Below, piece after piece: positions 23,621 to 57,223 of a DNA stretch of 64,000 nt. The DNA comes from an uncultured bacterium (GTDB taxonomy: Bacteria > Patescibacteriota > Minisyncoccia > Phycocordibacterales > UBA9973). Each line of letters opens with the position of its first letter. Position 1 is the first letter of the stretch. The translations under genes were made by a program, and so were the position numbers. Under the pieces are notes generated by a model. That model was not told the origin of the DNA. It did no database searches and saw only the letters and a program-made list of their open reading frames with translations. The stretch spans positions 34,269 to 98,268 of the forward strand of contig CAIQAL010000016.1 in NCBI GenBank assembly GCA_903869825.1, in the 5' to 3' direction.

Positions 23621-23770
23621 AAGAGATAAATTAATAAATATTAATAATAATGTTTTTAAAACACACTCCTTTAAATAATAACATATTCTATCGAAGTTGA
23701 TAAAGAAGTGTTAATAACTAAATAAAAAAATAGGCCTCTTCTGTAAAAGAAGGGCCTAGATATTTTAGAA

Positions 23771-24790
23771 TCACTTTTTAAGATTAAGAACGGCTGGTCC
23801 GAAGGTCATTTTAATGTAACCTAGGTTACCAGGACATCCAAATGAAGGGCAGAGTAACTTCAACATCATAGATGCGGAGTTCATTACCATAATTCGGTAC
23901 ACTCCTCCTCCCCAATCAATGGTATCACCATTGATAGTGTAATTGCCCCAATTTGTGTGAACACCGTATCGGTAAGAGTCAAATGTTCCATTAGAATTGA
24001 ATACCGTTTTGGTATCCAGGTCTTTTTGCTGAACAGTCGTAGGTGTCCAATAACCACCTTCGTCTCCAGAACAACTGGAAACAGCACTGGTTTCGCTCCA
24101 TGGATGGCTGTGAATGGTGTCGTTATAGTTAGATGGCGGCGGTGGAACAACAGTCACCTTCGTGCTATCTTCATCAGTACCAACACTGTTTCCTGCAAAA
24201 ACATGGAAGGTGGTGGTCTGATTGACAGATCTTTGGTATTGTCCGGGCTTGTTTACGTCGGAAATTTCAGGTGATGAGACAAAAGTATAGTCTCCTTCAA
24301 CAAGGATTATCACTGTAACGGTGTTACCAGAATCAGTGCGATCCGGAGTTACCGTTATTGTAACTTTTGGTTTAACCATATCAATAATGTCGGCATGCTT
24401 TGCAATAATGCTGGCTGTCTTTTTAAGATTTTCATTACCTTTTTTAATAAAGGTAAGAGAAATATCAGTGTTGGCAGCAATCGGCATGGAAACGAAATTA
24501 CCGCTCCCTGTCTTCTTGAAGGTTTCTGACCCAATAATCAGAAGAAGGGTGTCCGCATTTGAATTCCATTTCAAATGGAAAGATGTTCCAACTTTCATTG
24601 TGTCAATCATGTTTTCAGTGAAAGTCTTTCCATTGAGAGTTACCGAACTAACGGTAAGTGGGTCGACCACGGATGGTCCAATCGGGTCTTCTTTCTTGCA
24701 TCCGAAAAAAATCATCAGGACGCAAAGGGCAAGATACTTACTCAGGTCACGCCTGAGCGTTTCTTTCCTGTGCAACTTCTTGCTATTCAT
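23771..24790 (-). CDS. Putative lipoprotein
   Basis: 339 aa. Signal peptide with lipobox ...LMIFFGC|KKED. Predicted beta-rich. Sits directly upstream of and co-directional with the CARDB protein gene. Confidence 0.5.
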   Translation of the reverse strand: MNSKKLHRKETLRRDLSKYLALCVLMIFFGCKKEDPIGPSVVDPLTVSSVTLNGKTFTENMIDTMKVGTSFHLKWNSNADTLLLIIGSETFKKTGSGNFVSMPIAANTDISLTFIKKGNENLKKTASIIAKHADIIDMVKPKVTITVTPDRTDSGNTVTVIILVEGDYTFVSSPEISDVNKPGQYQRSVNQTTTFHVFAGNSVGTDEDSTKVTVVPPPPSNYNDTIHSHPWSETSAVSSCSGDEGGYWTPTTVQQKDLDTKTVFNSNGTFDSYRYGVHTNWGNYTINGDTIDWGGGVYRIMVMNSASMMLKLLCPSFGCPGNLGYIKMTFGPAVLNLKK

Positions 24791-33614: not shown

Positions 33615-35171
33615 TCATGCATTTTCGGTGCCAGAGCTTACGAGGATTTCGTTTTGCCATTCTCTCTCCTTATGTCGACATTCAAAATCTTTATGGGGCA
33701 GAGGCAAATTCATTCTCTTATAAAATGACAACTCTGCTTGGGTAATTCGAAAGTTTTTCTTGCACTCCTCACAAACAAATATTTCTTTCAAAATATCTTC
33801 GGAAATATCAAAAATACTACTTGGTATCTCTTTTAAGGTTTCCAACCCGTATGTTCCAGTTGTTTTCTCTTGCCAACGAAAGCCTCTTTTCAATGATTCT
33901 TCTTTTGTTAAAGGAAAATAATCGTGAGCTAGAGTTTCATTATAGCAAAAAGGTGCAAGATTAGCAGGAAAATATTGTCCAAAGACACTGTTTTGTTTTA
34001 ACTCTACCTCAATTTTTTCTTTTAGTTTAAAATATTCTTCTTTGGAATATGTCTTATTAAGAATCATACACTCACCTTTTCGAATGGCATTACACCCGAG
34101 CCCATTTACTAGATGATGGCAGTTTTCACAATATTCAACCCCACTACAATAGAAAACGAAAGCGGAATTTTTTAACTGGCTACCTTCCAAAGCTCCCATA
34201 ATGTTATACCCAAACTGGGACTTGTAATAATAATTGTTACAATCCCAACTATCAATTGGACTTTCTGTGTCTGTCATATAAGAACAATTTTTGGCATCAT
34301 AAGTGTCATAGAGTAGTACTCCTTGGTGACAATTGTACAAATAATCTCCAGTGACGTTGTTACATTTGTTTTGAGAAGCGAATTTTCGGATAGTTTTTTC
34401 TTTTAATCGTTCGAATTCTTTTTTAGCTTTTTCAATACTTTCGTAATTTTTTAGAATTTCGGCTTTTTTCTTTTCATATTCTTCTTTCTCGTATTTCACA
34501 TTGAAAATGGCATTGGTTAAGTGCCTGCCATTGGTGCAAAAGATACAATTACTCGAATCACGCATGTTATAGCAAAACAAAAGATCGCTGGAAGATTGGC
34601 ACTGCTCACAGAACATGCATTTGAAACATTTTCGGGAATCTAGACACTCGTAACAAAGTTCCGATTCGTGTAGAAATGCACAGTCGACACAAAATTTATC
34701 CCGTTGCAAAAGTCTGCTATACATACAATCCTCATTGTAGTCAGCCGCAAAAATCATGTAGCAATCCTTGTTTTCGGCTGAGCCATTTGTGTAATCACTT
34801 CGAACATTATTTACAGCAGCCATGCTTTGTCTTGGCACTTTCTTTTGCAATTCTTTGTATTGTTCAAAAAATGTTTTAGTTCGGTCATAATCCACGCCAA
34901 AACTTTTTGGGTCCCAGCCGTCACTCCACCAACAATCATGACAGTAAACTTGGAAATCCGACTCTGGAGAATAAACCGTTATTATGTCTTTTCTACAGAG
35001 ATCACATTGTCTTTTGTAAAGAGTCCGTTCATTTCGAAAAACTAAACGTCTAGCCATCCGACAATCGGAACAGTAAAGTGGAGGAGCAGTTTTCATCTGC
35101 TCGTAAAAAATCATATCCGCGTCCCGGATTTCAAACTCTTGATTACATGTCTTACAAATTTCTTTTGTCAT
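33615..35171 (-). CDS. Cysteine-rich protein of unknown function (paralog B); carries repeated CxxC zinc-ribbon-like modules including C-x2-C-x2-C-x2-C (CFKCMFCEQC)
   Basis: 518 aa. Colinear with ORF 72..1820: it shares the N-terminal ribbon C..CR..RRL, two internal modules ending YSKEEYFKLK, and the C-terminal FRITQAELSFYKRMNLPLP. Confidence 0.6.
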   Translation of the reverse strand: MTKEICKTCNQEFEIRDADMIFYEQMKTAPPLYCSDCRMARRLVFRNERTLYKRQCDLCRKDIITVYSPESDFQVYCHDCWWSDGWDPKSFGVDYDRTKTFFEQYKELQKKVPRQSMAAVNNVRSDYTNGSAENKDCYMIFAADYNEDCMYSRLLQRDKFCVDCAFLHESELCYECLDSRKCFKCMFCEQCQSSSDLLFCYNMRDSSNCIFCTNGRHLTNAIFNVKYEKEEYEKKKAEILKNYESIEKAKKEFERLKEKTIRKFASQNKCNNVTGDYLYNCHQGVLLYDTYDAKNCSYMTDTESPIDSWDCNNYYYKSQFGYNIMGALEGSQLKNSAFVFYCSGVEYCENCHHLVNGLGCNAIRKGECMILNKTYSKEEYFKLKEKIEVELKQNSVFGQYFPANLAPFCYNETLAHDYFPLTKEESLKRGFRWQEKTTGTYGLETLKEIPSSIFDISEDILKEIFVCEECKKNFRITQAELSFYKRMNLPLPHKDFECRHKEREWQNEILVSSGTENA

Positions 35172-35226
35172 TTGTTATTAGAATACAAAGTAATCAACTA
35201 TTTGTCAAAAATTTATTAGTTTCACA

Positions 35227-35754
35227 TTAAACTTCAAGTGTAGTAACTCCTTTAAGGTGCTCGGAGATGAAGTATCCTTGGAATTTTTCAAGGGAGGGAA
35301 GCTCAATTTTTGGCAGAGGAGAAAAAAAGATTTTTGTATTAAAAGGTTCAGTTAAAATTTTATCTTTTATAACACATTTATTAAAATCTCCCGATAGAAT
35401 GAATTTTTCTTTCTTTAATACTGCTTGAATTACTTCTTCAGAGAAAAGTTCAATATTTTTTAGTAATATTATTCGATTATCTAGTCCATGGCTCAAATTA
35501 TCTAAAAACTTTTTTTCATTTTCCTTGGTAAAAAAAGTAGCATCGCCTTTTGTCTCACCAATTTGATTTTTGAATTGTTCCTCAGCCATCGGGTAACCGC
35601 AAAGAACAATGATTTTATTCCCTTCCAAAAACAAATTACCAATGGTTGAAATTGTATAAAAAGAGGCTCCCGCATGATCTTCTCCGTGAATTAGTGCTGG
35701 AAAATCTGCTTGGGTAAATTTAAATTCCTTTTGATTAACAAATATTTTTTTCAT
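35227..35754 (-). CDS. Hypothetical protein (175 aa)
   Basis: ORF co-directional with and downstream of lexA. No recognisable motif. Confidence 0.4.
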   Translation of the reverse strand: MKKIFVNQKEFKFTQADFPALIHGEDHAGASFYTISTIGNLFLEGNKIIVLCGYPMAEEQFKNQIGETKGDATFFTKENEKKFLDNLSHGLDNRIILLKNIELFSEEVIQAVLKKEKFILSGDFNKCVIKDKILTEPFNTKIFFSPLPKIELPSLEKFQGYFISEHLKGVTTLEV

Positions 35755-35894
35755 TCTTAAATAATAACACAGGAGTTTTTATTATTGTTCTAATTTTTTT
35801 TTATTCTTTTCAAAGTCTATTTGATATTCAGGGATGCCGAGAGCAAGCCATATTTAGTAACTTCAGCGTATTCTTTTTTACTAGCTCTATCTAT

Positions 35895-36143
35895 TTAAAA
35901 AATTTTATCTCTATAAATAACAAAATGGATCTGTTCATTTTTATAATCTGCATACCATCCGTGGAGATGATTGCCGTTTTGTGATTTACTAATCTGCTCT
36001 GTTACTTCTGAGGATAGGCTTGGCTCAACCTCAACTTTGTGCAAGGTCCATATTTTTACCCATAGTGTCTGGTATCTGTCCGTTACTTCTTCCACTTTAG
36101 TAGAAATAATTTTTACTCTACTTAATACAGATTTGTCTCCCAA
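35895..36143 (-). CDS. Hypothetical small protein (82 aa)
   Basis: ORF between lexA and the 175-aa ORF on the same strand. ORF-level support only. Confidence 0.25.
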   Translation of the reverse strand: MGDKSVLSRVKIISTKVEEVTDRYQTLWVKIWTLHKVEVEPSLSSEVTEQISKSQNGNHLHGWYADYKNEQIHFVIYRDKIF

Positions 36144-36195
36144 ACTTTCTTCAATTATTTTGCCTTTAAATGCTTCTATGATTTATACTTTTATA

Positions 36196-36762
36196 CTAAT
36201 ATTTTCGGATAACTGCTTTTACTACGGCGGCGATGTTGAAACTGTGCTTCGGGTAAATTGGTTTTAAATTTTTATTGGCCGGTTCGAGCCAGACTTTCGC
36301 TCCAGACTGTCTAAAATATTTCAAAGTAAACTCGCCATCAACTTCGGCAATGACAATTTCTCTGTCTTTTGCCTGATTCGTTTTTTCTACAAGAATGCTA
36401 TCCCCTTTTTCAATATGCGCGTCAATCATCGAATCCCCGTCTACTTCAAGCATATAAGTAAGTGCTTTATTCTTGATTAAAAAATCATCCAGATTAATAG
36501 TGGTATCCGGAATTTCATCCACTTCGGATGGGAAACCAGCTTTGACAAGCCCTAGTTTTGGAATTTCACCAAATGTTTCTGATGGAATAAGTCTTCCTAA
36601 ATGATCTTTTGCCACTAAACCAGCTTCCATTAGTTTTTCAACGATTCGGAAAACAGCATTTTTTGATTTGAAGCTAAAAAGTTTCATCATCTCCGAATAG
36701 GTAGGCATTCTTTTGTTCCCCTGGTAGAAAGATTCAATTTTTGTTTGATAAATATTTTTCAT
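36196..36762 (-). CDS. lexA: LexA repressor
   Basis: N-terminal winged HTH. Ala-Gly cleavage site (LVKAGFP). S24 peptidase Ser (GDSM) and Lys (EFTLKYF). Confidence 0.85.
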   Translation of the reverse strand: MKNIYQTKIESFYQGNKRMPTYSEMMKLFSFKSKNAVFRIVEKLMEAGLVAKDHLGRLIPSETFGEIPKLGLVKAGFPSEVDEIPDTTINLDDFLIKNKALTYMLEVDGDSMIDAHIEKGDSILVEKTNQAKDREIVIAEVDGEFTLKYFRQSGAKVWLEPANKNLKPIYPKHSFNIAAVVKAVIRKY

Positions 36763-36783
36763 TTCCTTAATCCAAAATTACTC

Positions 36784-36975
36784 TTAGAATTGAAATATCG
36801 GAAAAAGTTTCCGAAAAATATTTTGCCTGGTGAGATAGCGCATTCTTCGAAGCATCAGCTTGTGATCTCGAGCTTCTTTTTTGTATTCTTCCCCTCGCAT
36901 AATTTTGATATCAATGGCCTTGTTTACCTTTTGAATCTCTTTTTCTAGCATTTTTAAATATTGTTTTTGTGACAT
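36784..36975 (-). CDS. Small basic coiled-coil protein, first gene of the lexA operon
   Basis: 63-aa ORF between the LexA box and lexA. A GC hairpin (36984-36999) overlaps its putative SD. Confidence 0.35.
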   Translation of the reverse strand: MSQKQYLKMLEKEIQKVNKAIDIKIMRGEEYKKEARDHKLMLRRMRYLTRQNIFRKLFPIFQF

Positions 36976-37048
36976 ATTACTTGTCCCGCAGCGGCGGGAT
37001 TAAATTTTATTTGTTAAAACGACCTATTTATTTATATAAATAGTATAT

Positions 37049-37064
37049 GTGAACGCTCGTTCAC
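37049..37064 (-). promoter_or_regulatory. LexA operator (GAAC-N4-GTTC, Cheo-box type)
   Basis: gtGAACgctcGTTCac is a perfect palindrome. It lies about 75 nt upstream of the small ORF and lexA. Confidence 0.65.
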
Positions 37065-37078
37065 TGTCAACAAACTCC

Positions 37079-37087
37079 TGTGGATAA
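37079..37087 (-). promoter_or_regulatory. DnaA box (TGTGGATAA, reverse complement of TTATCCACA)
   Basis: Exact 9-mer, 15 nt from the LexA box. Confidence 0.4.
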
Positions 37088-37089
37088 CT

Positions 37090-37112
37090 AAAAAAACCCC
37101 AGTGCCTTGGGG
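37090..37112 (-). terminator. Rho-independent terminator for the DksA/TraR-like gene
   Basis: On the minus strand: stem CCCCA / TGGGG followed by T7. Confidence 0.55.
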
Positions 37113-37255
37113 CATTTTAGGTATTTACTTTCGGCCGATACTGGATTACCTCCAGGATATGATCCTTCTATTTCGATTGTGACGATTGTTCCCGAAAGTA
37201 GGTTTACTTGTGCCGAATAAACTCTTTCAAACGCTATTCTGCTTTAATTAAATTA

Positions 37256-37621
37256 CTAATTACCTCCGTTCATGTGCTTTTTGCACGTTCGGGCAGATGG
37301 ATTCGCTTCCATTCTGGCAAGTTCAATATCTTTTTTACAAACTTCACATTTCCCAAAAGACTCTTTTCCGATTCCCTTCAAGGCCAAAAGTACGTGAGAA
37401 AGTTTTGATTCCAAAACTCTTAGCATGGAACTTTTTGCTTCAAAATCTTCAAACCGGTCGGCCATATCATTTTGGTCAGTGGCAACAGAGTTCATTTCTT
37501 CCGGAGTCGCTTCCCACTCACTTGTTTGTGGATTAAATTTCCCCATTCCTTTTAATCCTTCAACTAGGGTATCCCTTTCTTTTTCTAATTTTTCTTTGAT
37601 TTTATTTTTATCTAATGGCAT
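37256..37621 (-). CDS. DksA/TraR-family zinc-finger protein (YteA-like)
   Basis: 121 aa. Coiled-coil N-terminus. C-terminal CEVCKKDIELARMEANPSARTCKKH zinc finger, typical of DksA/TraR. Confidence 0.65.
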   Translation of the reverse strand: MPLDKNKIKEKLEKERDTLVEGLKGMGKFNPQTSEWEATPEEMNSVATDQNDMADRFEDFEAKSSMLRVLESKLSHVLLALKGIGKESFGKCEVCKKDIELARMEANPSARTCKKHMNGGN

Positions 37622-37655
37622 AGGCAGATAATAGCATTAAATTTCTAAATTGCAA

Positions 37656-38516
37656 CTACTTTTGGACTTGAGCCGAGGCTAATCTGAGGATTATTTCTGT
37701 GGCGGCTGTCTCACTATCTGTAATAATGAGCGAACTATTTTCAGCATAGATATACATCATCACGATTTTCCCATTATTATCCCTGAGGATTCGGGCATTT
37801 CTGTTTTGGATGATTCCATCCTCGAAATTTTTTTCTAGCAGATAATTTGTATCTGTATTTAGTTCAATCCCAAAATACCCATGCAGGTCGTAAAACATTT
37901 TCTTTTCCCAACCTCTCATTGCGTCAAATATATCTGCTGCTGATCGCATTTGAATCAAAAAAAACAGGTTTTTGGTGGGCTCGGCAGACTCTTCTTCGTT
38001 CACTGCCCCAAGTAGAAAATTATCACTGATAAACTCGATTTTTGATTGGTCTAATTTTGCTTCAATTAATTTGAAAAAATCTCGAAGCCCTATTATTTTT
38101 TTATCTTTGGTTAGATAGATTCCTTCCACTCCTCCCTGTTTAACTTCCACCGTCTTTGCCTCACTTGAAATTGTTTGAGCAACCTCTTCTTTAGTTAACC
38201 CAGAGAGTTCATTAAAGATGGTTTTATCGGTGAAGATTATCGGAACATAAGCCGGTTTCACTTCCACACTAAAAATCTGTTGACGAAAAATAAAGACAAG
38301 TGATACTAAGAGAAAAGTGAGCAAAACTAGGGCAATTCCTGCATAGAGGAATATTTTATTCCACTTGTGTTCGGGAGATTTTTTCTCTACTTCCGCGTCG
38401 TGTTCTTCTTGCTCTTGAATTATTTTTTTTATTACTCCGTTCTTGTTGTCCCCGATGATTTTTGCCATATCGTCAGCATAGGTTTCAACTTCTATGTTTT
38501 TCTTTGGTTCTTCCAT
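37656..38516 (-). CDS. Hypothetical membrane-anchored protein
   Basis: 286 aa. Acidic N-terminus, one transmembrane segment (FLYAGIALVLLTFLLVSLVFIF), and a C-terminal extracytoplasmic domain. Confidence 0.45.
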   Translation of the reverse strand: MEEPKKNIEVETYADDMAKIIGDNKNGVIKKIIQEQEEHDAEVEKKSPEHKWNKIFLYAGIALVLLTFLLVSLVFIFRQQIFSVEVKPAYVPIIFTDKTIFNELSGLTKEEVAQTISSEAKTVEVKQGGVEGIYLTKDKKIIGLRDFFKLIEAKLDQSKIEFISDNFLLGAVNEEESAEPTKNLFFLIQMRSAADIFDAMRGWEKKMFYDLHGYFGIELNTDTNYLLEKNFEDGIIQNRNARILRDNNGKIVMMYIYAENSSLIITDSETAATEIILRLASAQVQK

Positions 38517-38568
38517 TTGCTATATCATAACACAACGACAGAATATACGAAAAACAGGGAATAATTTT

Positions 38569-40683
38569 TTAGCTTTTTGGTTTAAAGAAATCTTTATCTG
38601 CAGCTTTAATGGAAAGCGAGATTTTACCACTTTCCATATCAACTTTGAGTACTCGGACAGGCACAATCATCCCTTCTTTTACTACGTCTCGAACATCGTT
38701 CACTCGAAATGGTGCAAGTTCTGAAACATGCACCAACCCATCGGTAAAAGGATTCAGTCGGACAAAGGCTCCAAAGTCAGCGATTTTTACTACTTCACCT
38801 TGAAGAGTTTCACCAGGTTTATATTCGTGAGTCATTTCTTCCACCATTTTCTTGGCAATGCCGGCTGACTCTCCTACTCCGGTAAAGTAAACAGTTCCAT
38901 CATCTTCGACGGTAATTTCCGCTCCCGATTGAGCTTTAATGTCTTTAATTGTCTTTCCACCGGAACCGATCACCATTCCGATTTGATCCGGTTTGATTTT
39001 AATAATTAATATTTTTGGTGCATTCGGTGAGATGTCGGCACGAGGTTTGGCAATTTCTTTTTCAATTCTGTCCAAAATTGCAGTCCGAGCTTTGATGGAT
39101 TGAACCATCGCTTCGCCTAATATTTTTATTGGCACTCCTTCCACTTTTACGTCGAGCTGGATTGCAGTTATCCCTTCCCTCGTTCCGGCTACTTTGAAAT
39201 CCATATCTCCGTGATGATCTTCAGGTCCTTGAATGTCGGTTAGTATTTTATATTTTGCTTCACTCTCATACATTAGCCCCATCGCAATTCCGGCCACTGG
39301 TGCTTTAATAGGCACACCCGCGTCCATAAGAGCAAGCGAACTTGCACAGATAGATGCTTGAGAAGTGGAACCGTTCGATGCCATCGATTCAGAAACAATT
39401 CGGATAGTATACGGAAAATCTGCAATTTTTGGTAAGACCATCGCGAGTGCTTTTTCCGCCAAGGCCCCATGTCCAACTTCTCTCCGATTTGTAAATCCGG
39501 AACGTCCGGTTTCCCCGGCTGAGTATGGAGGGAAATTGTAATGGTGCATAAATCTTTTTTCAACTTTTAATTGAAGTCCATCCACCAAGTTTCTGTCTTC
39601 AGGTCCTCCGAGAGTTAGAACGGAAAGTACGTGAGTTCCTCCACGATAAAAAATTCCGGAACCATGCAAGATGCTGGAAATTCCTCCTGCTTGAGCAAAC
39701 AAATCACGCAAGCCATCCATCGCTCGGCCGTCGGCTCTTTTATTTTCATTGATTGCTTTTTCGTGCAACATTTTATTTTCAGTTCCGTCGAATAAATCAT
39801 CTTCGAGAGCAAAGTCTTCCCGGTCCGGATAGGTATCCTCCACCAATTTATTCCAAACATTATGAAGCTCATCGATTTTCTTTTTTCCAACACCAGCAAA
39901 AATAGCTGCTTCCATTTTTGGCAATATTTGTTCGTTAAAAAGTTTCACTGAATCAGCAGAAACTGTATCGATCTCTATCACTCTTTTTTCTTTCCCAATT
40001 TCTTTCGCAATTGCTTTTTGGAAATTTTCAAATTTTGTGATTTCTTCACTTGCTCGTTTTAAAGCTTCTTCTATTTCCTCTTCTTTTGTTTCATGGGCAG
40101 AAGCTTCAATCATATTAATGTTTCCGTCTTTCCCGCAAACCGTCAGGTCAAATTTATATTGCTCGTCCATTTCACGCAATTTCTGGGATGGATTGATTGT
40201 CAAATTGTCGGCGTCGTATTTTCCGATTCGAACACATCCGATTGGTCCCGCCCAAGGAATATTTGAAACCATAAGAGCGAGAGAGGCAGCGTTTACCGCC
40301 AAGATTGTCGGGTCATTATCATCGACTGAAATTACCGTTACAATTATCTGTACCGCGTGGCGCATTTTTTGGTCAAAAAGTGGACGCAAGGTTCGGTCAA
40401 TAACTCGACTAGCTAGAATCGCTGTCTCAGAAGGTCTTCCTTCTCGGCGAACAAAACGAGAACCCAAAATTTTTCCGGCAGCATAAAACTTCTCGGCATA
40501 GTCAACGGTCAAGTTGAAAAAGCCAAGTCCTTTTTGTTTGTCGTGAGACATGCAAGCCGTCGCCAACACTATCGTCTCCCCATATTTTAACATCACCGAT
40601 CCTTGAGCTTGTTCCGCCAAGTCAGTGAACATCGCGGTCAAAGTTTTGCCGCCGATTTCTACACTATATTCTTTTTTTTCCAT
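38569..40683 (-). CDS. pnp: Polynucleotide phosphorylase
   Basis: 704 aa with two RNase PH domains, a KH domain (GSGGKTIKDI) and an S1 domain (GEVVKIADFGAFVRL). Confidence 0.9.
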   Translation of the reverse strand: MEKKEYSVEIGGKTLTAMFTDLAEQAQGSVMLKYGETIVLATACMSHDKQKGLGFFNLTVDYAEKFYAAGKILGSRFVRREGRPSETAILASRVIDRTLRPLFDQKMRHAVQIIVTVISVDDNDPTILAVNAASLALMVSNIPWAGPIGCVRIGKYDADNLTINPSQKLREMDEQYKFDLTVCGKDGNINMIEASAHETKEEEIEEALKRASEEITKFENFQKAIAKEIGKEKRVIEIDTVSADSVKLFNEQILPKMEAAIFAGVGKKKIDELHNVWNKLVEDTYPDREDFALEDDLFDGTENKMLHEKAINENKRADGRAMDGLRDLFAQAGGISSILHGSGIFYRGGTHVLSVLTLGGPEDRNLVDGLQLKVEKRFMHHYNFPPYSAGETGRSGFTNRREVGHGALAEKALAMVLPKIADFPYTIRIVSESMASNGSTSQASICASSLALMDAGVPIKAPVAGIAMGLMYESEAKYKILTDIQGPEDHHGDMDFKVAGTREGITAIQLDVKVEGVPIKILGEAMVQSIKARTAILDRIEKEIAKPRADISPNAPKILIIKIKPDQIGMVIGSGGKTIKDIKAQSGAEITVEDDGTVYFTGVGESAGIAKKMVEEMTHEYKPGETLQGEVVKIADFGAFVRLNPFTDGLVHVSELAPFRVNDVRDVVKEGMIVPVRVLKVDMESGKISLSIKAADKDFFKPKS

Positions 40684-40874
40684 AATTTTTTACTCCGAGT
40701 GTAGTCGGGTTTTACCGAACACAATCGTGAGGGTTAGTTCATATTCAGACTGTAATATTGTTCCTGTCTTTATTGATTAACACTGTTAATCTGCATATAA
40801 AGATGAACACTACTATCTGTCTGAACACGAACAGATTAACTAATAAATTACTTGATAATATTAGCACTTTTAGG

Positions 40875-40915
40875 GGATAAGTAAAGCCGAAAGTTTTTTC
40901 CAACTTTACTTATCC
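40875..40915 (-). promoter_or_regulatory. 12-bp perfect stem-loop in the pnp upstream region (candidate RNase III / autoregulatory hairpin)
   Basis: GGATAAGTAAAG ... CTTTACTTATCC with a 17-nt loop. No flanking U-tract on either strand. Confidence 0.4.
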
Positions 40916-40935
40916 GTTAACCAAAATCAGACTAA

Positions 40936-41460
40936 CTATGTCCTTGGAGTAACTGCTGGAACTCCGATTAAAAACTTTCTTGGGTTTTCACAGAGGTCGA
41001 TAAAATCATCGGCAGCTTCACGCAGTTTTGAAGAAGTAGACTTCCCGAAAGAAATAACTTCGACTTGAGTCATTGTCTGCAAATATTGAACGAGCGGAAC
41101 AAAGTCCCCATCCCCAGAAACAATTACAATCGTATCGAGTCGCGGTGCGGTTTTAATCGCATCCACGGCAAGTCCTACATCCCAGTCCCCTTTTTTGGTT
41201 CCGGTATGAAAGATTTGCAAGTCTTTAGTTTTGGTTTCTATTCCAAGTTTTGTAAGTGCTTCAAAAAAATGTTTTTCATCGCCTGCTTCGGTCGTGATAA
41301 CGTACGCCACAGCGTGAACTAATTTTCTTCCGGCCACCGCTTCTTTAAGCACGGCGCCAAAATTTACTCTTGCTTTGTATAAATTACGAGCGGAGTGATA
41401 TAGATTTTGAGTATCAATAAAAACTCCGACTCTTTGTTCTTTATGTTTAATTACTGTCAT
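40936..41460 (-). CDS. NYN-domain (LabA/PIN-like) protein
   Basis: 174 aa with VGVFIDTQNLY ... DVGLAVDAI ... IVIVSGDGDFVPLV, matching the NYN/LabA family. Confidence 0.7.
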   Translation of the reverse strand: MTVIKHKEQRVGVFIDTQNLYHSARNLYKARVNFGAVLKEAVAGRKLVHAVAYVITTEAGDEKHFFEALTKLGIETKTKDLQIFHTGTKKGDWDVGLAVDAIKTAPRLDTIVIVSGDGDFVPLVQYLQTMTQVEVISFGKSTSSKLREAADDFIDLCENPRKFLIGVPAVTPRT

Positions 41461-51070: not shown

Positions 51071-52618
51071 TTACTTTTTCACTCCGTGCTTCTTGTGCAA
51101 CTTCATTACTTCCTCTTCTTCCCTTTCTTCTTTTTTTTCTTTGCCTCTTTCTCCCAATGTCCTTAAGGTATTGTCCGGCAAAATGTTCAAGGACTTTGCT
51201 AGTTCGATTAGGTGCTCTTCTTTGTTTTTGCTCGGGTCATCAAGGACTTCTTCCAATAATGCATTTAAAATCCAGCCTATTCTAGGTCCGGGATTTATCC
51301 CAATGTCCTTTATTAAAATATTCCCATCAATCCTCAATTGGGCAACCGAAATCGGATCACGCAGAGCTTCCTCTATCATAGCAAAATATTTACGCAGACG
51401 ATACGGTGCCTCTTTTTTCTTCATTCCAACTCTGTCACATTCTCTCACCTTCATTAAATCCCAAATATTTTCTTTTCCAACTCTTGCAACAATTCTTCGA
51501 ACAGCGGATAAAGTTATCTGTTCCGTGTCGGAAAAAAACATGTGGGTGTGGATAAGTTTTTCCACCATTTCAATATTTTTTTTTGGAAATTTTAATCGCT
51601 CCAAAATTATTTTTGTCATCCGTGCACCGACAACTTCATGACCATAGAAAGTATATTTCTTTTTCCCCGGGGTAACAGAAAGACGTCGGGACCTTGGTTT
51701 CCCGATATCGTGCATTAGGGCTGCGAGCCTTATCTCTAAAGACCAATCCTTGTCAGCCGCATGTTGTAGGGCGTGCAACAAATGATTCCAAACATCAAAG
51801 AGATGAGCCCCTCCTTGCTCGCACCCTATCCCCTCTTCGAGTTCCGGAATAATATTTTTTAATAAATTAAATTTTTGCAGCAACAAAATTCCAGCACTTG
51901 AATTTTCGGACATAATTATTTTTACAAATTCATCACGTATTCTTTCTTCCGATATTTTTTTTATCAACAAAGAATTTTTTAAAATACTTTCTGTGGTTTC
52001 GTGAGAAATTGAAAAACCAAGTTGCACAGAAAATCGTACTGCTCGTAACATCCTTAGCGCGTCTTCCCGAAATCGGTCGTCGGGTTTCCCTACTGTCCTT
52101 AAAACTTTATTTTCAATGTCCTTTAGCCCATCAAACATGTCCGTTAGACTGTACATGTCCTTTATCTTTCTAACTGCCATGGCATTAACGGTAAAATCCC
52201 GTCTCTTAAGGTCATCCTCAAGCTTGTCACTGAATTTGACCTCATCTGGATGCCTAAAATCACTATATTTTTCCTCAGTTCGGTATGGAGTGACTTCAAT
52301 GATGTTATATTCGGGCTGCCCCTGCCTGTCGGCAGGTACGTCGCGAATAACATCACCCGCTGACGTTTCACGAATAACACACACTCCAACCGTTCCAAAG
52401 TTATTTTCATAGACAGTCTTTTCAAAAAGTTTGATGATTTGTTCCGGCCTAGCATTAGTTGTGACATCCCAATCCTTCGGTTCTCTATTAAGAATTAGAT
52501 CCCTGACACAGCCACCGACCAGGTAAGCTTCAAAACCGGCGCGCTCAAGAGTGTCGGTTACATGTGAAACTTCTTTAGGAATTTTGTGCAGAAAATTTTT
52601 GTTGTTAATCGAGTTCAC
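51071..52618 (-). CDS. cca: CCA-adding tRNA nucleotidyltransferase with HD domain
   Basis: 515 aa. PolyA_pol head (YLVGGCVRDLIL...DWDVTT) plus an HD domain (LMHDIGK). The stop is 9 nt from a tRNA gene. Confidence 0.8.
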   Translation of the reverse strand: MNSINNKNFLHKIPKEVSHVTDTLERAGFEAYLVGGCVRDLILNREPKDWDVTTNARPEQIIKLFEKTVYENNFGTVGVCVIRETSAGDVIRDVPADRQGQPEYNIIEVTPYRTEEKYSDFRHPDEVKFSDKLEDDLKRRDFTVNAMAVRKIKDMYSLTDMFDGLKDIENKVLRTVGKPDDRFREDALRMLRAVRFSVQLGFSISHETTESILKNSLLIKKISEERIRDEFVKIIMSENSSAGILLLQKFNLLKNIIPELEEGIGCEQGGAHLFDVWNHLLHALQHAADKDWSLEIRLAALMHDIGKPRSRRLSVTPGKKKYTFYGHEVVGARMTKIILERLKFPKKNIEMVEKLIHTHMFFSDTEQITLSAVRRIVARVGKENIWDLMKVRECDRVGMKKKEAPYRLRKYFAMIEEALRDPISVAQLRIDGNILIKDIGINPGPRIGWILNALLEEVLDDPSKNKEEHLIELAKSLNILPDNTLRTLGERGKEKKEEREEEEVMKLHKKHGVKK

Positions 52619-52626
52619 TTACGTTG

Positions 52627-52697
52627 TGCGGCTAGGGAGAATCGAACTCCCGTCTCATCCTTGGCAAGGACGTGTTCTACCACTAAACCATAACCGC
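52627..52697 (-). tRNA. tRNA-Gly (anticodon GCC)
   Basis: Manual fold of the reverse complement: GCGGTTA acceptor, D stem GTTT/GAAC, anticodon loop TTGCCAA, T arm GGGAG-TTCGATT-CTCCC. 71 nt. No encoded CCA. Confidence 0.8.
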
Positions 52698-52824
52698 AGG
52701 TTACTTTTTAATGCATTTATTATATTATTATTTATGACATATTGCAATTGATAAAAATATCCGTGAGACTAAAGGCTAAATCTGTAATATACAAGTTTTC
52801 TCAATTATAGTATAATAGTTTTAC

Positions 52825-52896
52825 GCACCCGTAGTGAAATGGATATCATGCCTGCCTTCGAAGCAGTTGTTGGGGGTTCGAATCCCTCCGGGTGCA
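52825..52896 (+). tRNA. tRNA-Arg (anticodon TCG)
   Basis: Manual fold: acceptor GCACCCG/CGGGTGC, anticodon loop CTTCGAA, T arm GGGGG-TTCGAAT-CCCTC. 72 nt. No CCA. Confidence 0.7.
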
Positions 52897-53104
52897 CAAA
52901 CGAAAAGACAAACTTTATAAAAATTCTTGTCCTTTAATTTTTCAAAACGTTATCAATTATACCTATTTTTGACTCAATCTGGGGATAACTATGTTAGTAA
53001 TGTTTATAAAGGACACCTATTATTTTTGTCTTTTAAATCATTTTTTGTTATTATACATTGTTAAATATAGATATTTTGTAAAAGACAGATAATTTATCAA
53101 TTTA

Positions 53105-53118
53105 GTTTCACGTGAAAC
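53105..53118. promoter_or_regulatory. Perfect 14-bp palindrome GTTTCACGTGAAAC (one of three related sites)
   Basis: Related sites are AAACGTGAAACGT at 53136-53148 and GTGTTTCACGAGAAACAC at 53294-53311. Confidence 0.35.
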
Positions 53119-53316
53119 GTGAGTGATGATGGTTAAACGTGAAACGTAACTATTTATGCCTTGAGTTTTACTTCTAGGACTCAACAAATAGGAGAAATAG
53201 GTAAAAACATATTAGAACAAAATCACACAAAAAACGGGAAGAGCTAAATATTAACCGAAAAAACTAGTAGAATTTATTTTGTTTAAGTAAAGAGTGTTTC
53301 ACGAGAAACACTGAAT

Positions 53317-53526
53317 TTGGTTTCTTGTGTAACAAACAACGAATACCATCCCGAGGAAAATATTCACCCTTCAAAGATGAAAAGGATGTCACGGACAATT
53401 CAAACCTATCTTTTGTCCAAGAAAATTACTGACGAGAACGAATGGAAAGTAGATCTCCTTGTCATATATTTAGGTTTAAAGAATAAAAAAGCGCGAATAA
53501 AAGTTGTGGAAGATCTAATTTTATAA
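53317..53526 (+). CDS. Hypothetical small protein (69 aa)
   Basis: ORF only. It starts immediately after the third palindromic site. Confidence 0.2.
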   Translation: MVSCVTNNEYHPEENIHPSKMKRMSRTIQTYLLSKKITDENEWKVDLLVIYLGLKNKKARIKVVEDLIL

Positions 53527-53581
53527 TATACTAAAAATGCTTAAGTTAAACGGGCTTGCCCGCCGAAGCTTTTAAGCATCA

Positions 53582-53652
53582 CGGGCTGTAGTATACCGGT
53601 AGTACAAGCGCTTTGGGAGCGTTTAGACTGGGTTCGATTCCCAGCAGCCCGA
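53582..53652 (+). tRNA. tRNA-Pro (anticodon TGG)
   Basis: Manual fold: acceptor CGGGCTG/CAGCCCG, D stem GTAT/GTAC, anticodon loop TTTGGGA, T arm CTGGG-TTCGATT-CCCAG. 71 nt. No CCA. Confidence 0.75.
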
Positions 53653-53656
53653 CATT

Positions 53657-53727
53657 GCGGGATTAGTTTAATGGTAAAACGTCAGTTTTCCAAACTGAGG
53701 TTGGGAGTTCGATTCTCCCATCCCGCA
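53657..53727 (+). tRNA. tRNA-Gly (anticodon TCC)
   Basis: Manual fold: acceptor GCGGGAT/ATCCCGC, anticodon stem TCAGT/ACTGA with loop TTTCCAA, T arm GGGAG-TTCGATT-CTCCC. 71 nt. No CCA. Only 4 nt after tRNA-Pro. Confidence 0.8.
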
Positions 53728-53773
53728 CATAAAGTTTTGTATATATCTCCTTTTTTCCTGTATAATAGTCCTT

Positions 53774-54517
53774 ATGATATACATCATATTAATAAGTTTT
53801 GGGGCGTTAGTGGCAACTTTTTTAGGTGGCATTTTTGCTTTACAATTTAAAGACAAACTTCACCTAATTTTAGGTTTTTCAGCTGGAGCAGTTATCGGCG
53901 TAGCATTTTTTGATTTACTTCCGGAAGCACTAAGCTTAGCAAGTAAAACTTATAGTATTCCATTTATTACTTCCATTACCGCTCTCGGATTTATTGTTTA
54001 TGTTGTGCTCGACCGATTTGTATTTTTTCATTCTCACGGCCACCACGAAGGAGAAGATAATGCTCGAGAGCAAAAAAATATTGAGCGAGGAATCCTTGGG
54101 GCGGGGAGCCTTTCTATTCATAGTTTCCTTGATGGAATGGCAATCGGGCTTGCATTTCAAGTCTCTGTGGCGGTTGGCGTTATCGTGGCAGTAGCTGTAC
54201 TTGTCCATGATTTTTCTGATGGAATAAACACAGTCAATATGATTTTAAAAAACAATGGCTCTCGGGTGCTTGCTTTTAAATGGCTCCTGGCTGATGCAAT
54301 TGCACCGGTATTTGGAATAATTTCCACTTTATTTTTCTCAGTAAAAGAGTCAACTTTGGGAATTATTTTGGCTATTTTTTCTGGGTTTTTTCTATATATC
54401 GGTGCCTCTGATTTGTTGCCAGAAAGTCATCATAATCACCCAACTATTTGGACCACCGCTTTAACCGTTCTTGGTTTTGGAATTTTATTCGGAGCTATTA
54501 AACTTGCTGGGATATAA
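53774..54517 (+). CDS. zupT: ZIP-family zinc transporter
   Basis: 247 aa with 8 transmembrane segments. Has a His-rich loop (HSHGHHEGEDNA) and the motifs HSFLDGMAIG and HDFSDG. Confidence 0.8.
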   Translation: MIYIILISFGALVATFLGGIFALQFKDKLHLILGFSAGAVIGVAFFDLLPEALSLASKTYSIPFITSITALGFIVYVVLDRFVFFHSHGHHEGEDNAREQKNIERGILGAGSLSIHSFLDGMAIGLAFQVSVAVGVIVAVAVLVHDFSDGINTVNMILKNNGSRVLAFKWLLADAIAPVFGIISTLFFSVKESTLGIILAIFSGFFLYIGASDLLPESHHNHPTIWTTALTVLGFGILFGAIKLAGI

Positions 54518-55646: not shown

Positions 55647-55903
55647 AAAAACTCCTCCGAGAACTAGGGAAGTGACCAGTAAAAAGTTAAATATTTTAAA
55701 TTGAGGTTTAATAAATAAAACAAAATATCGCGGGAATTCCTTTTTTGCCTATATGATATAAGGCAAAATACAGGACGACCAAAAAGTACTGCACAAATAG
55801 GTTCCTACGATGGTTAATATCCTTCAGTTCTTCGGTCAACTAAATCTTGCTCCTGTTGCTGATACTTATATGGTAGCAAACTAGTGGGGGGAGTCAACCG
55901 AAC

Positions 55904-55912
55904 TGTGGATAA
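55904..55912 (-). promoter_or_regulatory. DnaA box (TGTGGATAA)
   Basis: Exact 9-mer in the divergent intergenic region. Confidence 0.35.
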
Positions 55913-56164: not shown

Positions 56165-57223
56165 ATGAAAAAAACAATTCTTGCAGTACTGTTGGCTGTT
56201 GTAATGACGGCCTTTGGTCAAATCAAGGAACCTGTTGTTCCTCAAATCCATGTTGCAAAACATGGGGAAAGTGCCTGGAAAATTTCCCGTCTTTATTATG
56301 GGAAAGGAACCTTCTGGCGTGATAGCGTTTTCGCTCAGAATGAATTCCTCCAACAAAGAGGGATCCAATCTGGAACTCACCCAGGATGGGATTATGTAAA
56401 CATCAAGACCGGTGAGTTAGTGCAGGTGGGGGTGGGGGCAATAAAAAAACGGGTAGCTCCTATTCAAAACAACCAAGGAGGCATGGGGGAACCTGCAAAC
56501 AGTGATCTATGGTGGGGTCTTGACCCCTGGACATGGTTATTCATGATTATGGCTTTAATATTTTTCATTCTTTTTATTATCTCTTCGCTAAAAAGAGAAA
56601 GATTGAAAGATAATGAAAAAGAAAAAGACATCCTCTTTTCAAGGGAAAAGGCATCCCTCAAAAAGGAGCTGGAAGAAACAAAAAACAAGCTCCCCATTGA
56701 AGCCCCCGTGTTGGCAGATGCAGAATGGTTAGGAAGTCACTCTCCGGTAGGTGCCCCAATCCCACAAGATGACCCCGTCGCAGCATCTGATGCAATTGCA
56801 AAAGTATATGGAAAAAAACCAGACCTGATAGCTCAGGCTAAGGTTTCAACCGTAGAAAATGCAACCAAGATGAAATTTTCTCATGAACGTACCGCAACTA
56901 CCGGGTTAGACAATGTTAATGTTTACCTTGGTTGGGATTGGAGTACTAAAAAAAGAAGATGGGTTCAGGTTGGTATGTGGGCTGGTGCATGCACAAACGG
57001 ATTTGAAAGCAACCCGGACAAAGTCAAGAAGAATCAGGTTTTTTCAAAAATCGAACCAATTGACAAAAACCATCACCCAATTATCTCAACAGGGAAAAAT
57101 GTTCCCGCAGGGGTACAATACCCAATGATTGTAAAGTCCTTGGTGTTTAAGTACCACAAGGACAACATCGTCGACCTAAAAAAAATCGGCGTGCTGGTAG
57201 AAATACCTCAAAATCTCAATTAA
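56165..57223 (+). CDS. LysM-like domain membrane protein
   Basis: 352 aa. Signal peptide, LysM-like segment (IHVAKHGESAWKISRLYYGKGTFWRDSVFAQNEF), a transmembrane helix, coiled coil, and a C-terminal globular domain. Confidence 0.5.
   Translation: MKKTILAVLLAVVMTAFGQIKEPVVPQIHVAKHGESAWKISRLYYGKGTFWRDSVFAQNEFLQQRGIQSGTHPGWDYVNIKTGELVQVGVGAIKKRVAPIQNNQGGMGEPANSDLWWGLDPWTWLFMIMALIFFILFIISSLKRERLKDNEKEKDILFSREKASLKKELEETKNKLPIEAPVLADAEWLGSHSPVGAPIPQDDPVAASDAIAKVYGKKPDLIAQAKVSTVENATKMKFSHERTATTGLDNVNVYLGWDWSTKKRRWVQVGMWAGACTNGFESNPDKVKKNQVFSKIEPIDKNHHPIISTGKNVPAGVQYPMIVKSLVFKYHKDNIVDLKKIGVLVEIPQNLN

What the first reader, a model, noticed from the sequence alone, without database searches (positions are those of the whole stretch)
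52897..53316. 565-bp ORF-free AT-rich stretch inside the tRNA cluster carrying three related palindromic sites (TTTCACGTGAAA)
Between tRNA-Arg and the next ORF there is no ORF of 60 aa or longer. The stretch contains a perfect 14-bp palindrome GTTTCACGTGAAAC (53105..53118), a half-site repeat AAACGTGAAACGT (53136..53148) and a near-palindrome GTGTTTCACGAGAAACAC (53294..53311). These look like operator sites for a dimeric regulator. Alternatively this is the scar of a degraded mobile element that targeted the tRNA cluster, or it encodes an unrecognised small RNA. I could not recognise tmRNA, SRP RNA or RNase P signatures by eye.
Basis: seen in the sequence. Interest (0 to 1): 0.55.

Follow-up and report, generated by a model that had tools for sequence, protein, structure and literature searches.

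The report
Chromosome centromere (parS) sites, decayed gene
The palindromes are copies of the well-known bacterial centromere sequence parS, clustered beside a conserved DnaA-box region that may be the replication origin, and the stretch has no ORF only because a small nuclease gene there has decayed.

Summary

The motif is the pan-bacterial parS centromere, TGTTNCACGTGAAACA, which the partition protein ParB binds. It is not a private operator, a mobile-element scar or an RNA.

In 44 syntenic Paceibacterota/Nomurabacteria relatives, a median of 5 parS-like sites (3 or fewer mismatches) lie in about 2 kb here. Only 17 such sites occur in the other 359 kb of the same loci. The sites sit in the 5' leader of a yraN/UPF0102 nuclease gene, in-frame inside that gene, and inside the neighbouring CCA-adding enzyme gene.

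The stretch is ORF-free because the window's yraN-like gene (53155..53526) is a pseudogene. Relatives keep it intact.

The roughly 230 nt upstream is non-coding and more conserved than the gene. It holds a DnaA box with two weaker tandem boxes and an unexplained 9-mer, TGTCYTTTA, in alternating orientation. Third-codon GC skew flips sign across the locus whichever strand the genes are on. This suggests the locus is at or very near oriC, far from dnaA.

ParB itself could not be checked. Overall this is a new member of a known kind, of modest interest.

The parts
53104..53119 (.). parS-1, AGTTTCACGTGAAACG. The 14-bp core is perfect and only the two outermost positions differ from the 16-bp consensus TGTTTCACGTGAAACA. 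It lies in the 5' leader of the yraN-like gene.
   Evidence: The orthologous site is invariant in relatives. It is a 16/16 match in 16 relatives and an exact 14-mer in 42 of 80 loci. The consensus comes from PMC7022226.
53131..53146 (.). parS-2, a degenerate site (GGTTAAACGTGAAACG, 4 mismatches). It keeps one consensus half-site, GTGAAAC, and starts 27 bp after parS-1.
   Evidence: Relatives carry a second, variable palindrome 16-27 bp after the first, for example GTTTCTTATGAAAC or GTTACACATGTAAC. ParB binding to half-sites is reported in PMC7022226.
53295..53310 (.). parS-3, TGTTTCACGAGAAACA (15 of 16). It lies inside the yraN-like reading frame, where it spells S-V-S-R-E-T.
   Evidence: The orthologous in-frame site has 1-2 mismatches in most relatives. 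It is retained in the window although the gene is dead.
53319..53334 (.). parS-4, a degenerate site (GGTTTCTTGTGTAACA, 4 mismatches), 24 bp after parS-3. It spells L-V-S-C-V-T.
   Evidence: Relatives have V-x-(R/H)-E-T codons with parS-like DNA at this position.
52364..52379 (.). Weak parS-like site inside the CCA-adding enzyme gene (CGTTTCACGAATAACA, 4 mismatches).
   Evidence: At this position relatives carry 1-3 sites with 1-3 mismatches, spaced 27 bp apart.
52556..52571 (.). Weak parS-like site near the 5' end of the CCA-adding enzyme gene (GGTTACATGTGAAACT, 4 mismatches).
   Evidence: The site TGTTACATGTGAAAC(T/C) is conserved at the same place in most relatives.
52925..53103 (.). Conserved AT-rich non-coding block upstream of the parS pair. 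Together with the sites it is about 230 aligned columns. It is more conserved than the neighbouring coding sequence and is a candidate oriC or DnaA-binding region.
   Evidence: blastn gives 75-80% identity in 47 loci. No consensus RNA fold.
52980..53009 (-). Three tandem DnaA-box-like 9-mers: TGGGGATAA (52980-52988, 8/9), TGTTAGTAA (52992-53000, 6/9) and TGTTTATAA (53001-53009, 7/9). Each reads as TTATCCACA-like on the minus strand.
   Evidence: In most relatives the first is a perfect TGTGGATAA, followed by TGTTGGTAA and TGTTTATAA, all strongly conserved.
52928..52936 (+). 9-mer TGTCCTTTA, copy 1 of an unexplained conserved motif TGTCYTTTA.
   Evidence: The motif occurs at 2.94 per kb in the spacers and 0.44 per kb outside them.
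53007..53015 (-). 9-mer copy 2 (TAAAGGACA on the plus strand). It overlaps the third DnaA-like box and forms an inverted repeat with copy 3 across an 11-nt gap.
53027..53035 (+). 9-mer copy 3 (TGTCTTTTA). It doubles as the -35 region of a promoter-like site, TTGTCT-17-TATTAT, at 53026-53054.
53079..53087 (-). 9-mer copy 4 (TAAAAGACA on the plus strand).
53155..53526 (+). yraN/UPF0102-like PD-(D/E)xK nuclease pseudogene. The ATG is followed by TGA at codon 3 and a 1-nt deletion. A net 13-codon deletion is present. In-frame stops replace the catalytic Asp and Glu positions. The 3' half survives as the 69-codon ORF 53317-53526.
   Evidence: tblastn with a relative's protein gives E = 2e-42, 58% identity, two in-frame stops and a 13-residue gap. 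Relatives have intact 131-163 aa ORFs that match PF02021 at 60-66 bits against a cut-off of 23.6. The window relic scores 17.6 bits.
52825..52897 (+). tRNA-Arg(TCG), the left boundary of the spacer.
53582..53728 (+). tRNA-Pro(TGG) and tRNA-Gly(TCC), the right boundary of the spacer.

Best explanation
**What it is.** The palindromes are chromosomal parS sites, the centromere-like sequences at which ParB (Spo0J) dimers load.

**Inferred mechanism, from the established ParABS pathway.**
- ParB dimers recognise the 16-bp palindrome through their helix-turn-helix domains.
- They close as CTP-dependent clamps and slide or spread onto flanking DNA.
- The resulting partition complex is moved by ParA and recruits SMC. 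This organises and segregates the origin-proximal part of the chromosome.

**Arrangement in this lineage.** In this Paceibacterota/Nomurabacteria-like lineage the sites form an unusually tight array, typically 3-5 good sites plus weaker ones in about 2 kb. The array is laid over three places:
- the leader of a small yraN/UPF0102 nuclease gene;
- loop-coding parts of that gene;
- the neighbouring CCA-adding enzyme gene.

**The upstream block.** Directly upstream lies a conserved AT-rich non-coding block with one strong and two weak tandem DnaA boxes. Third-codon-position GC skew changes sign across the locus. The array therefore most likely sits at, or within a few kb of, the replication origin.

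**Why the window looks ORF-free.** Its yraN-like gene has decayed into a pseudogene, while the two best parS sites and the upstream block have been kept.

**Shown versus inferred.**
- Shown: motif identity, conservation, clustering, the pseudogene, absence of RNA structure, the skew flip.
- Inferred: ParB binding, and the oriC function of the block.
For: **Motif identity**
- The window has AGTTTCACGTGAAACG (14/14 core) and TGTTTCACGAGAAACA (15/16).
- The published parS consensus is TGTTNCACGTGAAACA or TGTTTCACGTGAAACA in Firmicutes and Proteobacteria (PMC7022226 Table 1).
- The full 16-mer is matched 16/16 in 16 relatives.

**Conservation**
- The upstream site is nearly invariant across 44 aligned relatives whose flanking CCA enzyme is only 57-77% identical.
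- The exact 14-mer occurs once, at the orthologous position, in 42 of 80 loci.

**Clustering**
- There is a median of 3 sites (2 or fewer mismatches) and 5 sites (3 or fewer mismatches) per genome in the spacer plus 1.3 kb.
- This compares with 3 and 17 sites in the remaining 359 kb of the same loci.
- Only one other hit with 3 mismatches occurs in the 64-kb window.

**Independence from coding**
- Sites occur in the 5' leader and in-frame in two unrelated genes.
- They survive in the window's dead gene.

**Origin proximity**
- Across about 44 relatives, GC3 skew on the window-plus strand was measured separately for plus-strand and minus-strand genes.
- Left of the locus it is -0.124 and -0.184. 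Right of the locus it is +0.015 and +0.098.
- In the window the best single breakpoint is 52-55 kb, and the cumulative GC-skew minimum is at 52-53 kb.
- Chromosomal parS sites are characteristically within the ori domain.

**Conserved DnaA boxes** are in the block.

**Not RNA**.
Against: - **No ParB found.** No ParB, ParA or DnaA gene lies in the 64-kb window. None lies within 5 kb of the locus in 80 relatives by motif search. The cognate protein is therefore assumed, not shown.
- **No literature.** No report of parS or ParB in Patescibacteria was found.
- **Weak sites.** Four of the six window sites have 4 mismatches and may not bind.
- **The oriC part is weaker.**
  - In the window the main box has a mismatch.
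  - Four other perfect DnaA boxes lie in other intergenic regions of the window.
  - No convincing DnaA-trio or BUS arrangement was recognisable against the rules in PMC8287927.
  - Gene orientation does not flip at the locus in relatives.
  - The skew test uses orthologous genes that are not independent, and only about 3.5 kb of right flank.
Confidence: 0.8

Rival explanations
1. The palindromes are operators of a dimeric transcription factor that controls the yraN-like gene or the tRNA cluster. The factor might be the YraN-like protein itself, acting as an autoregulator.
For: - The two upstream sites lie between a promoter-like element (TTGTCT-17-TATTAT, 53026-53054) and the start codon in every relative. 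That is a classic operator position.
- The sites are always tied to the yraN-like gene.
Against: - The sequence equals the universal parS consensus rather than a private motif.
- No regulator gene is adjacent.
- Equivalent sites lie deep inside two coding regions, including the unrelated CCA enzyme gene.
- In the window the gene is dead but the sites are kept.
- YraN/UPF0102 is a PD-(D/E)xK nuclease fold with no known sequence-specific repressor role. That last point is my own knowledge.
Confidence: 0.08
2. The conserved spacer encodes a structured non-coding RNA, and the palindromes are its hairpins or terminators.
For: - The spacer is conserved at 63-80% identity over about 600 nt next to tRNA genes.
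- AGTGTTTCACGAGAAACACT scores as a terminator-like hairpin.
Against: - Rfam finds nothing but tRNAs, even at E of 10 or less.
- About two thirds of the conservation is explained by an intact protein gene in relatives.
- RNAalifold on the remaining block gives -1.5 kcal/mol on the plus strand and 0 on the minus strand, with no covariation.
- The repeated 9-mers vary without compensating changes.
Confidence: 0.03
3. The stretch is the scar of a mobile element that inserted into the tRNA cluster, and the palindromes are leftover terminal or target repeats.
For: - tRNA clusters are common integration targets.
- The window copy does contain a degraded gene.
- Some relatives carry extra unrelated ORFs inserted after the yraN-like gene.
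Against: - The same gene order (CCA enzyme, tRNA pair, block, yraN-like gene, tRNA-Pro/Gly) holds in more than 45 species-level genomes.
- There is no integrase, transposase or flanking direct repeats.
- The degraded gene is a resident housekeeping-type gene that is intact elsewhere.
Confidence: 0.02
4. The sites are true parS, but the conserved upstream block is only a DnaA-regulated promoter or leader region, not oriC. The origin lies elsewhere, for example next to dnaA outside the window.
For: - Perfect DnaA boxes occur in four other intergenic regions of the window, so DnaA boxes are used widely.
- The block contains promoter-like elements.
- No clear DnaA-trio array is present (one search rules against the sequence).
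- parS sites need only lie within the ori domain, about 20% of the chromosome.
Against: - GC3 skew flips sign at this locus on both gene strands in relatives.
- The window's best breakpoint is 52-55 kb.
- The block is more conserved than the coding DNA around it.
- It carries three tandem boxes plus an enriched 9-mer.
Confidence: 0.4

Closest known systems
Chromosomal parS sites of the ParABS partition system (B. subtilis Spo0J sites; Lin and Grossman 1998; Livny et al. 2007)
   Same: - The 16-bp palindrome is the same, TGTTNCACGTGAAACA.
- There are several copies per chromosome.
- Some copies lie inside coding genes.
- The location is origin-proximal.
- Degenerate and half-sites accompany the good ones.
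   Different: - The array is much tighter than the examples in the review table. It has up to 9 sites (3 or fewer mismatches) in about 2 kb. B. subtilis has 10 sites, 8 of them in the ori domain.
- Sites recur as pairs 16, 24 or 27 bp apart, written in-frame into protein loops such as V-S-R-E-T, F-L-V-K-H and V-S-H-V-T.
- No parAB operon is nearby. This lineage's ParB was not seen.
Bacterial oriC (DnaA-box cluster plus unwinding element; BUS model of Pelliciari et al. 2021, PMC8287927)
   Same: - It is a conserved AT-rich non-coding block with a consensus DnaA box and adjacent weaker tandem boxes.
- An origin-type GC-skew sign change occurs at the locus.
- parS sites are next door.
   Different: - It is not next to dnaA or dnaN. 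It sits between tRNA genes.
- Only one strong box is present.
- No recognisable DnaA-trio array or GC-rich spacer is present.
- An extra 9-mer of unknown role, TGTCYTTTA, appears in alternating orientation.
UPF0102 / YraN family (Pfam PF02021), predicted PD-(D/E)xK endonucleases
   Same: Relatives' proteins match PF02021 at 60-66 bits and carry the G-E-I-D ... E-V-K motif.
   Different: - The window copy is a pseudogene.
- This lineage has a variable loop after E-V-K whose codons spell parS-like DNA.

Membership tests
Chromosomal parS (ParABS centromere) | 16-bp inverted repeat matching TGTTNCACGTGAAACA | tested here: met
   - The window has sites at 53104 (2 mismatches, both at the outer positions) and 53295 (1 mismatch).
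- There are 16/16 matches in 16 relatives.
Chromosomal parS (ParABS centromere) | Site conserved at orthologous positions and over-represented relative to background | tested here: met
   - The exact 14-mer occurs once per locus in 42 of 80 loci.
- Density is about 180 times higher than in the rest of the loci.
Chromosomal parS (ParABS centromere) | Location in the origin-proximal domain | tested here: inconclusive
   - GC3 skew flips sign across the locus, and the cumulative skew minimum is at 52-53 kb.
- Only 64 kb of this genome and about 10 kb per relative were available.
Chromosomal parS (ParABS centromere) | Genome encodes a cognate ParB (HTH and CTPase domains), usually with ParA | not testable with these tools
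   - None lies in the 64-kb window.
- None lies within 5 kb in 80 loci.
- The rest of the genomes could not be read.
Chromosomal parS (ParABS centromere) | ParB binds and spreads from the site | not testable with these tools
   This needs ChIP-seq or EMSA.
oriC | Cluster of DnaA boxes in a conserved non-coding region | tested here: inconclusive
   - There is one box (9/9 in most relatives, 8/9 in the window) plus two tandem 6-7/9 boxes.
- By box density the region is not the best in the window.
oriC | DNA-unwinding element or DnaA-trios next to the boxes | tested here: inconclusive
   - An AT-rich conserved stretch is present.
- No clear (NAN)n trio array with the spacing described in PMC8287927 was recognisable.
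oriC | Strand-composition (GC skew) switch from negative to positive | tested here: met
   - The side coefficient for GC3 skew is +0.10 in relatives, independent of gene strand.
- It is +0.09 in the window, with the best breakpoint at 52-55 kb.
- The effect is modest, and the genes are not phylogenetically independent.
UPF0102 / YraN nuclease | Match to PF02021 above the gathering score, with an intact ORF and the D...E-x-K motif | tested here: not met
   - The window relic scores 17.6 bits against 23.6, with stops at the catalytic positions.
- Relatives meet the criterion at 60-66 bits.
- The window copy is therefore a pseudogene of this family.
Transcription-factor operator | Private palindrome next to its regulator gene, confined to promoter regions | tested here: not met
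   - No regulator is adjacent.
- The motif equals parS.
- Copies lie inside coding regions.
Structured non-coding RNA | Match to a known family, or a conserved fold with covariation | tested here: not met
   - Rfam finds none.
- RNAalifold gives -1.5 and 0 kcal/mol.

The most novel reading that the evidence does not exclude
The conserved block plus its parS array may be a compact combined origin-and-centromere module of Paceibacterota. On this reading:
- oriC sits between tRNA genes, tens of kb or more from dnaA and parAB;
- it has one strong and two weak DnaA boxes;
- a lineage-specific 9-mer, TGTCYTTTA, in alternating orientation is bound by an unknown factor;
- a dense parS array has been written in-frame into the loops of the two flanking genes, so selection for centromere sites has shaped protein sequence.
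Probability: 0.4. Interest if true: 0.5.

Novelty: new member of a known kind. Interest (0 to 1): 0.35.

Why it matters
**What it gives**
- It provides a concrete, testable centromere, and a candidate replication origin, for a large uncultivated lineage (Paceibacterota / Candidate Phyla Radiation).
- I found no description of parS or oriC for this lineage in the searchable literature.

**Practical uses**
- The locus could anchor replication-rate (peak-to-trough) estimates.
- It could help orient MAG assemblies.

**Evolutionary point**
- It shows centromere sites being maintained inside coding sequence and inside a dead gene. This is a clean example of DNA-level selection overriding protein-level constraint.

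**Limits**
- In kind it is ordinary, because parS near the origin is textbook.

Tried and rejected
- **Rfam.** I scanned the whole window at gathering threshold and 52500-53900 at E of 10 or less. Only tRNAs were found.
- **RNAalifold.** The conserved block has no fold on either strand.
- **Exact-protein look-up.** The neighbouring ZIP protein is not on record.
- **Pfam.** I annotated 50 window ORFs looking for ParB, ParA and DnaA. None was found.
- **Motif search.** I searched the six-frame translations of the window and all 80 loci for ParB box II, the ParA Walker motif and the DnaA Walker motif. There were no hits.
- **Unannotated ORFs.** Two candidates (56165-57223 and 37656-38516) were read by eye and are not ParB-like.
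- **Extra ORFs.** Those in relatives with long spacers are not ParB-like by eye either; they were not run against a family library.
- **Literature.** Searches for parS, ParB or oriC in Patescibacteria, Parcubacteria or RAAC4 returned nothing usable.
- **BUS architecture.** I compared the block with the DnaA-box / spacer / trio architecture. There was no convincing match.
- **Raw GC skew.** Profiles binned in 500-bp steps around the locus were dominated by gene strand and uninformative. Gene orientation shows no clean flip in relatives. Only the third-position analysis was informative.
- **UPF0102 hit.** I first took the weak hit of the 69-aa ORF (E = 0.005) for chance. Relatives showed it is the real remnant of the gene.
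- **ParB search not run.** I ran no further search on ParB. The results carry no taxonomy and could not be tied to this lineage.

Full report
**Setting**

The window is AT-rich (about 37% G+C). Its CCA-adding enzyme gene pulls out 80 loci from MAGs named Candidatus Nomurabacteria, Paceibacterota or Patescibacteria, at 57-77% protein identity.

The finding lies in a 684-bp spacer (52898-53581). On the left is tRNA-Arg(TCG). On the right are tRNA-Pro(TGG) and tRNA-Gly(TCC). tRNA-Gly(GCC) and the CCA-adding enzyme gene (51071-52618, minus strand) lie further left. A ZIP transporter gene lies further right.

**The observation**

The palindromes are real:
- GTTTCACGTGAAAC at 53105;
- GTTAAACGTGAAAC at 53132;
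- GTTTCACGAGAAAC at 53296;

No ORF of 60 aa or more lies between 52897 and 53317. Inside the window alone the enrichment is only suggestive.

**The spacer is not drifting intergenic DNA**

blastn of the spacer against the 80 loci finds 63-80% identity over up to about 600 nt in dozens of genomes. tRNA mapping shows the same arrangement almost everywhere.

Two things explain the conservation.

1. *A gene that is intact in relatives.* Relatives carry an intact ORF of about 131-163 aa on the window's plus strand. It matches Pfam UPF0102/YraN at 60-66 bits against a cut-off of 23.6. It has the PD-(D/E)xK signature G-E-I-D ... E-V-K.

   The window's copy (53155-53526) is a pseudogene:
   - the ATG is followed by TGA at codon 3 and a 1-nt deletion;
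   - deletions of 36, 1 and 2 nt remove a net 13 codons;
   - in-frame stops replace the catalytic Asp and Glu positions;
   - tblastn gives E = 2e-42 and 58% identity.

   The weak UPF0102 hit of the 69-aa ORF is its surviving 3' half. This is why the stretch looks ORF-free.

2. *A highly conserved non-coding block.* The roughly 230 nt upstream of the gene is non-coding, yet it is more conserved than the gene itself.

**What the palindromes are**

With one flanking base on each side, the motif is TGTTTCACGTGAAACA. This is the chromosomal parS site bound by ParB/Spo0J. Published consensus forms include B. subtilis TGTTNCACGTGAAACA and Hyphomonas TGTTTCACGTGAAACA (PMC7022226 Table 1).

Window sites:
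- 53104-53119, with 2 mismatches, both at the outermost positions;
- 53295-53310, with 1 mismatch;
- 53131 and 53319, each keeping one half-site.

Evidence from relatives:
- The upstream site is almost invariant.
- It is a 16/16 match in 16 genomes.
- The exact 14-mer occurs once per locus, at the orthologous position, in 42 of 80 loci.

The sites form a dense array. Per genome there is a median of 3 sites with 2 or fewer mismatches, and 5 sites with 3 or fewer mismatches (up to 9), within the spacer plus the first 1.3 kb towards and into the CCA gene. Only 3 and 17 such sites occur in the other 359 kb of the same loci.

The sites occupy fixed places:
- a pair in the leader of the yraN-like gene;
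- one over the codons K-F-L-V-K-H;
- one or two over S-V-S-R-E-T and V-x-R/H-E-T in a variable loop after the E-V-K motif;
- two to four inside the CCA enzyme gene.

Neighbouring sites are typically 16, 24 or 27 bp apart.

Three facts argue that the DNA motif, not the protein or a promoter, is what selection maintains:
- sites occur in a leader and in two unrelated reading frames;
- they are symmetrical variants of one sequence;
- the two best sites persist in the window's dead gene.

A private operator is unlikely, because no regulator gene is adjacent. An RNA is unlikely for two reasons:
- Rfam finds nothing;
- the block has no consensus fold.

A mobile-element scar is contradicted by synteny across more than 45 genomes.

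**The upstream block and the origin question**

The alignment shows, in order:
- TGTCCTTTA;
- an AT-rich stretch;
- three tandem DnaA-box-like 9-mers: TGTGGATAA (TGGGGATAA in the window, 52980), CTA, TGTTGGTAA, TGTTTATAA;
- TAAAGGACA, an 11-nt gap, then TGTCTTTTA;
- about 45 nt of very AT-rich conserved sequence with promoter-like spacing;
- TAAAAGACA;
- the parS pair.

The 9-mer TGTCYTTTA is seven times denser in the spacers than outside them. It does not covary as RNA pairs would. I cannot assign it.

Evidence that the locus is at or near the origin:
- The cumulative GC skew of the window is lowest at 52-53 kb.
- With gene strand regressed out, the best single breakpoint for third-position skew in the window is 52-55 kb.
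- Across about 44 relatives, GC3 skew on the window-plus strand is -0.124 for plus-strand genes and -0.184 for minus-strand genes on the left.
- On the right it is +0.015 and +0.098 respectively.
- This is the origin-type sign change, and it is independent of gene strand.
- parS sites are characteristically origin-proximal.

Evidence against equating the block with oriC:
- No dnaA lies in the window.
- Four other perfect DnaA boxes sit in other intergenic regions of the window.
- I could not recognise a DnaA-trio array by the published rules.
- Gene orientation does not flip at the locus in relatives.
- The skew test rests on short flanks and non-independent orthologues.

I therefore give the parS identification about 0.8-0.85. 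I give 'this block is oriC' about 0.4-0.5.

**Mechanism**

This is inferred from the established ParABS pathway. Nothing was tested here.
- ParB dimers load at the good sites as CTP-dependent clamps and spread over the neighbourhood.
- ParA moves the complex, and SMC is recruited.
- Together these organise and segregate the origin region.
- The weaker and half-sites may add avidity. ParB binding to GTTTCAC half-sites is reported in PMC7022226.

**What is missing**

The cognate ParB was not seen. It is not in the 64-kb window. It was not found within 5 kb of the locus in 80 relatives. The tools could not read the rest of those genomes. The literature library holds nothing on parS or oriC in this group.

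**Verdict**

It is wrong on identity.
- The feature is a parS centromere array beside a candidate origin, overlying a decayed yraN-like gene.
- It is a new member of a known kind.
- Points of moderate interest are the tight, coding-embedded array, its distance from dnaA and parAB, and the unexplained 9-mer.

Noticed in passing
window 52928-53087, also 51304, 52117, 52156; spacers of L001-L079: The 9-mer TGTCYTTTA and its complement TAAARGACA occur 4 times in alternating orientation in the conserved block, and 3 more times (all plus strand) inside the CCA gene. Density is 2.94 per kb in relatives' spacers against 0.44 per kb outside. There are no compensatory changes, so it is a DNA-level motif. 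The binding factor is unknown.
   Followed up: partly
window 51071-52618 (CCA-adding enzyme gene); L001-L080 around locus positions 5220-5300: Relatives carry one to three parS-like sites, often 27 bp apart, in-frame about 220-300 nt into the CCA enzyme gene, plus another near its 5' end. In the window these codons read C-V-I-R-E-T-S and E-V-S-H-V-T, and the sites are degraded to 4 mismatches.
   Followed up: partly
L001-L080, window 52626-52897 and 53582-53728: The divergent tRNA pair Gly(GCC)/Arg(TCG) occurs in both orders among relatives, and the Pro(TGG)/Gly(TCC) pair occurs in both orientations. Each pair has therefore been inverted as a unit around the conserved block. The two tRNA-Gly genes share a 27-nt inverted repeat, 89% complementary (I1), which could mediate such inversions.
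   Followed up: no
window 55668-55841: A roughly 150-170 nt stretch just upstream of the M23/LysM peptidase ORF, in a 518-bp intergenic region, is conserved at 73-78% in 20 relatives. A perfect DnaA box follows at 55904. Rfam finds nothing credible there. It could be an unannotated N-terminal extension, a leader or a small RNA.
   Followed up: partly
window 11737, 24950, 37079, 55904 (and 51547 inside the CCA gene): There are five perfect DnaA boxes (TTATCCACA) in 64 kb, and four of them are in intergenic regions. Boxes with 1 or fewer mismatches number 28 against 17.5 expected, and no shuffle out of 100 reaches that count. This suggests wide use of DnaA boxes as regulatory sites in this genome.
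   Followed up: partly
L029, L036, L037, L039, L049, L062, L061, L042 spacers: In some relatives the spacer is 1.7-3.2 kb long and holds an extra ORF of 315-730 aa between the yraN-like gene and tRNA-Pro. At least two unrelated protein types occur. None looks like ParB by eye. The spot seems to tolerate insertions.
   Followed up: partly
window 53537-53580: An imperfect hairpin, ATGCTTAAG...CTTTTAAGCAT, encloses a small GGGC/GCCC stem. It lies directly between the pseudogene stop and tRNA-Pro. It may be a terminator or a tRNA-processing element. I did not examine it in relatives.
   Followed up: no
window 20414-24790 and 33615-41460: Minus-strand genes in these two stretches have third-position GC skew near zero or positive, unlike the rest of the left arm. 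The cause could be local compositional islands, past inversions or horizontally acquired genes. One of them is a 1068-aa CARDB-domain protein.
   Followed up: no
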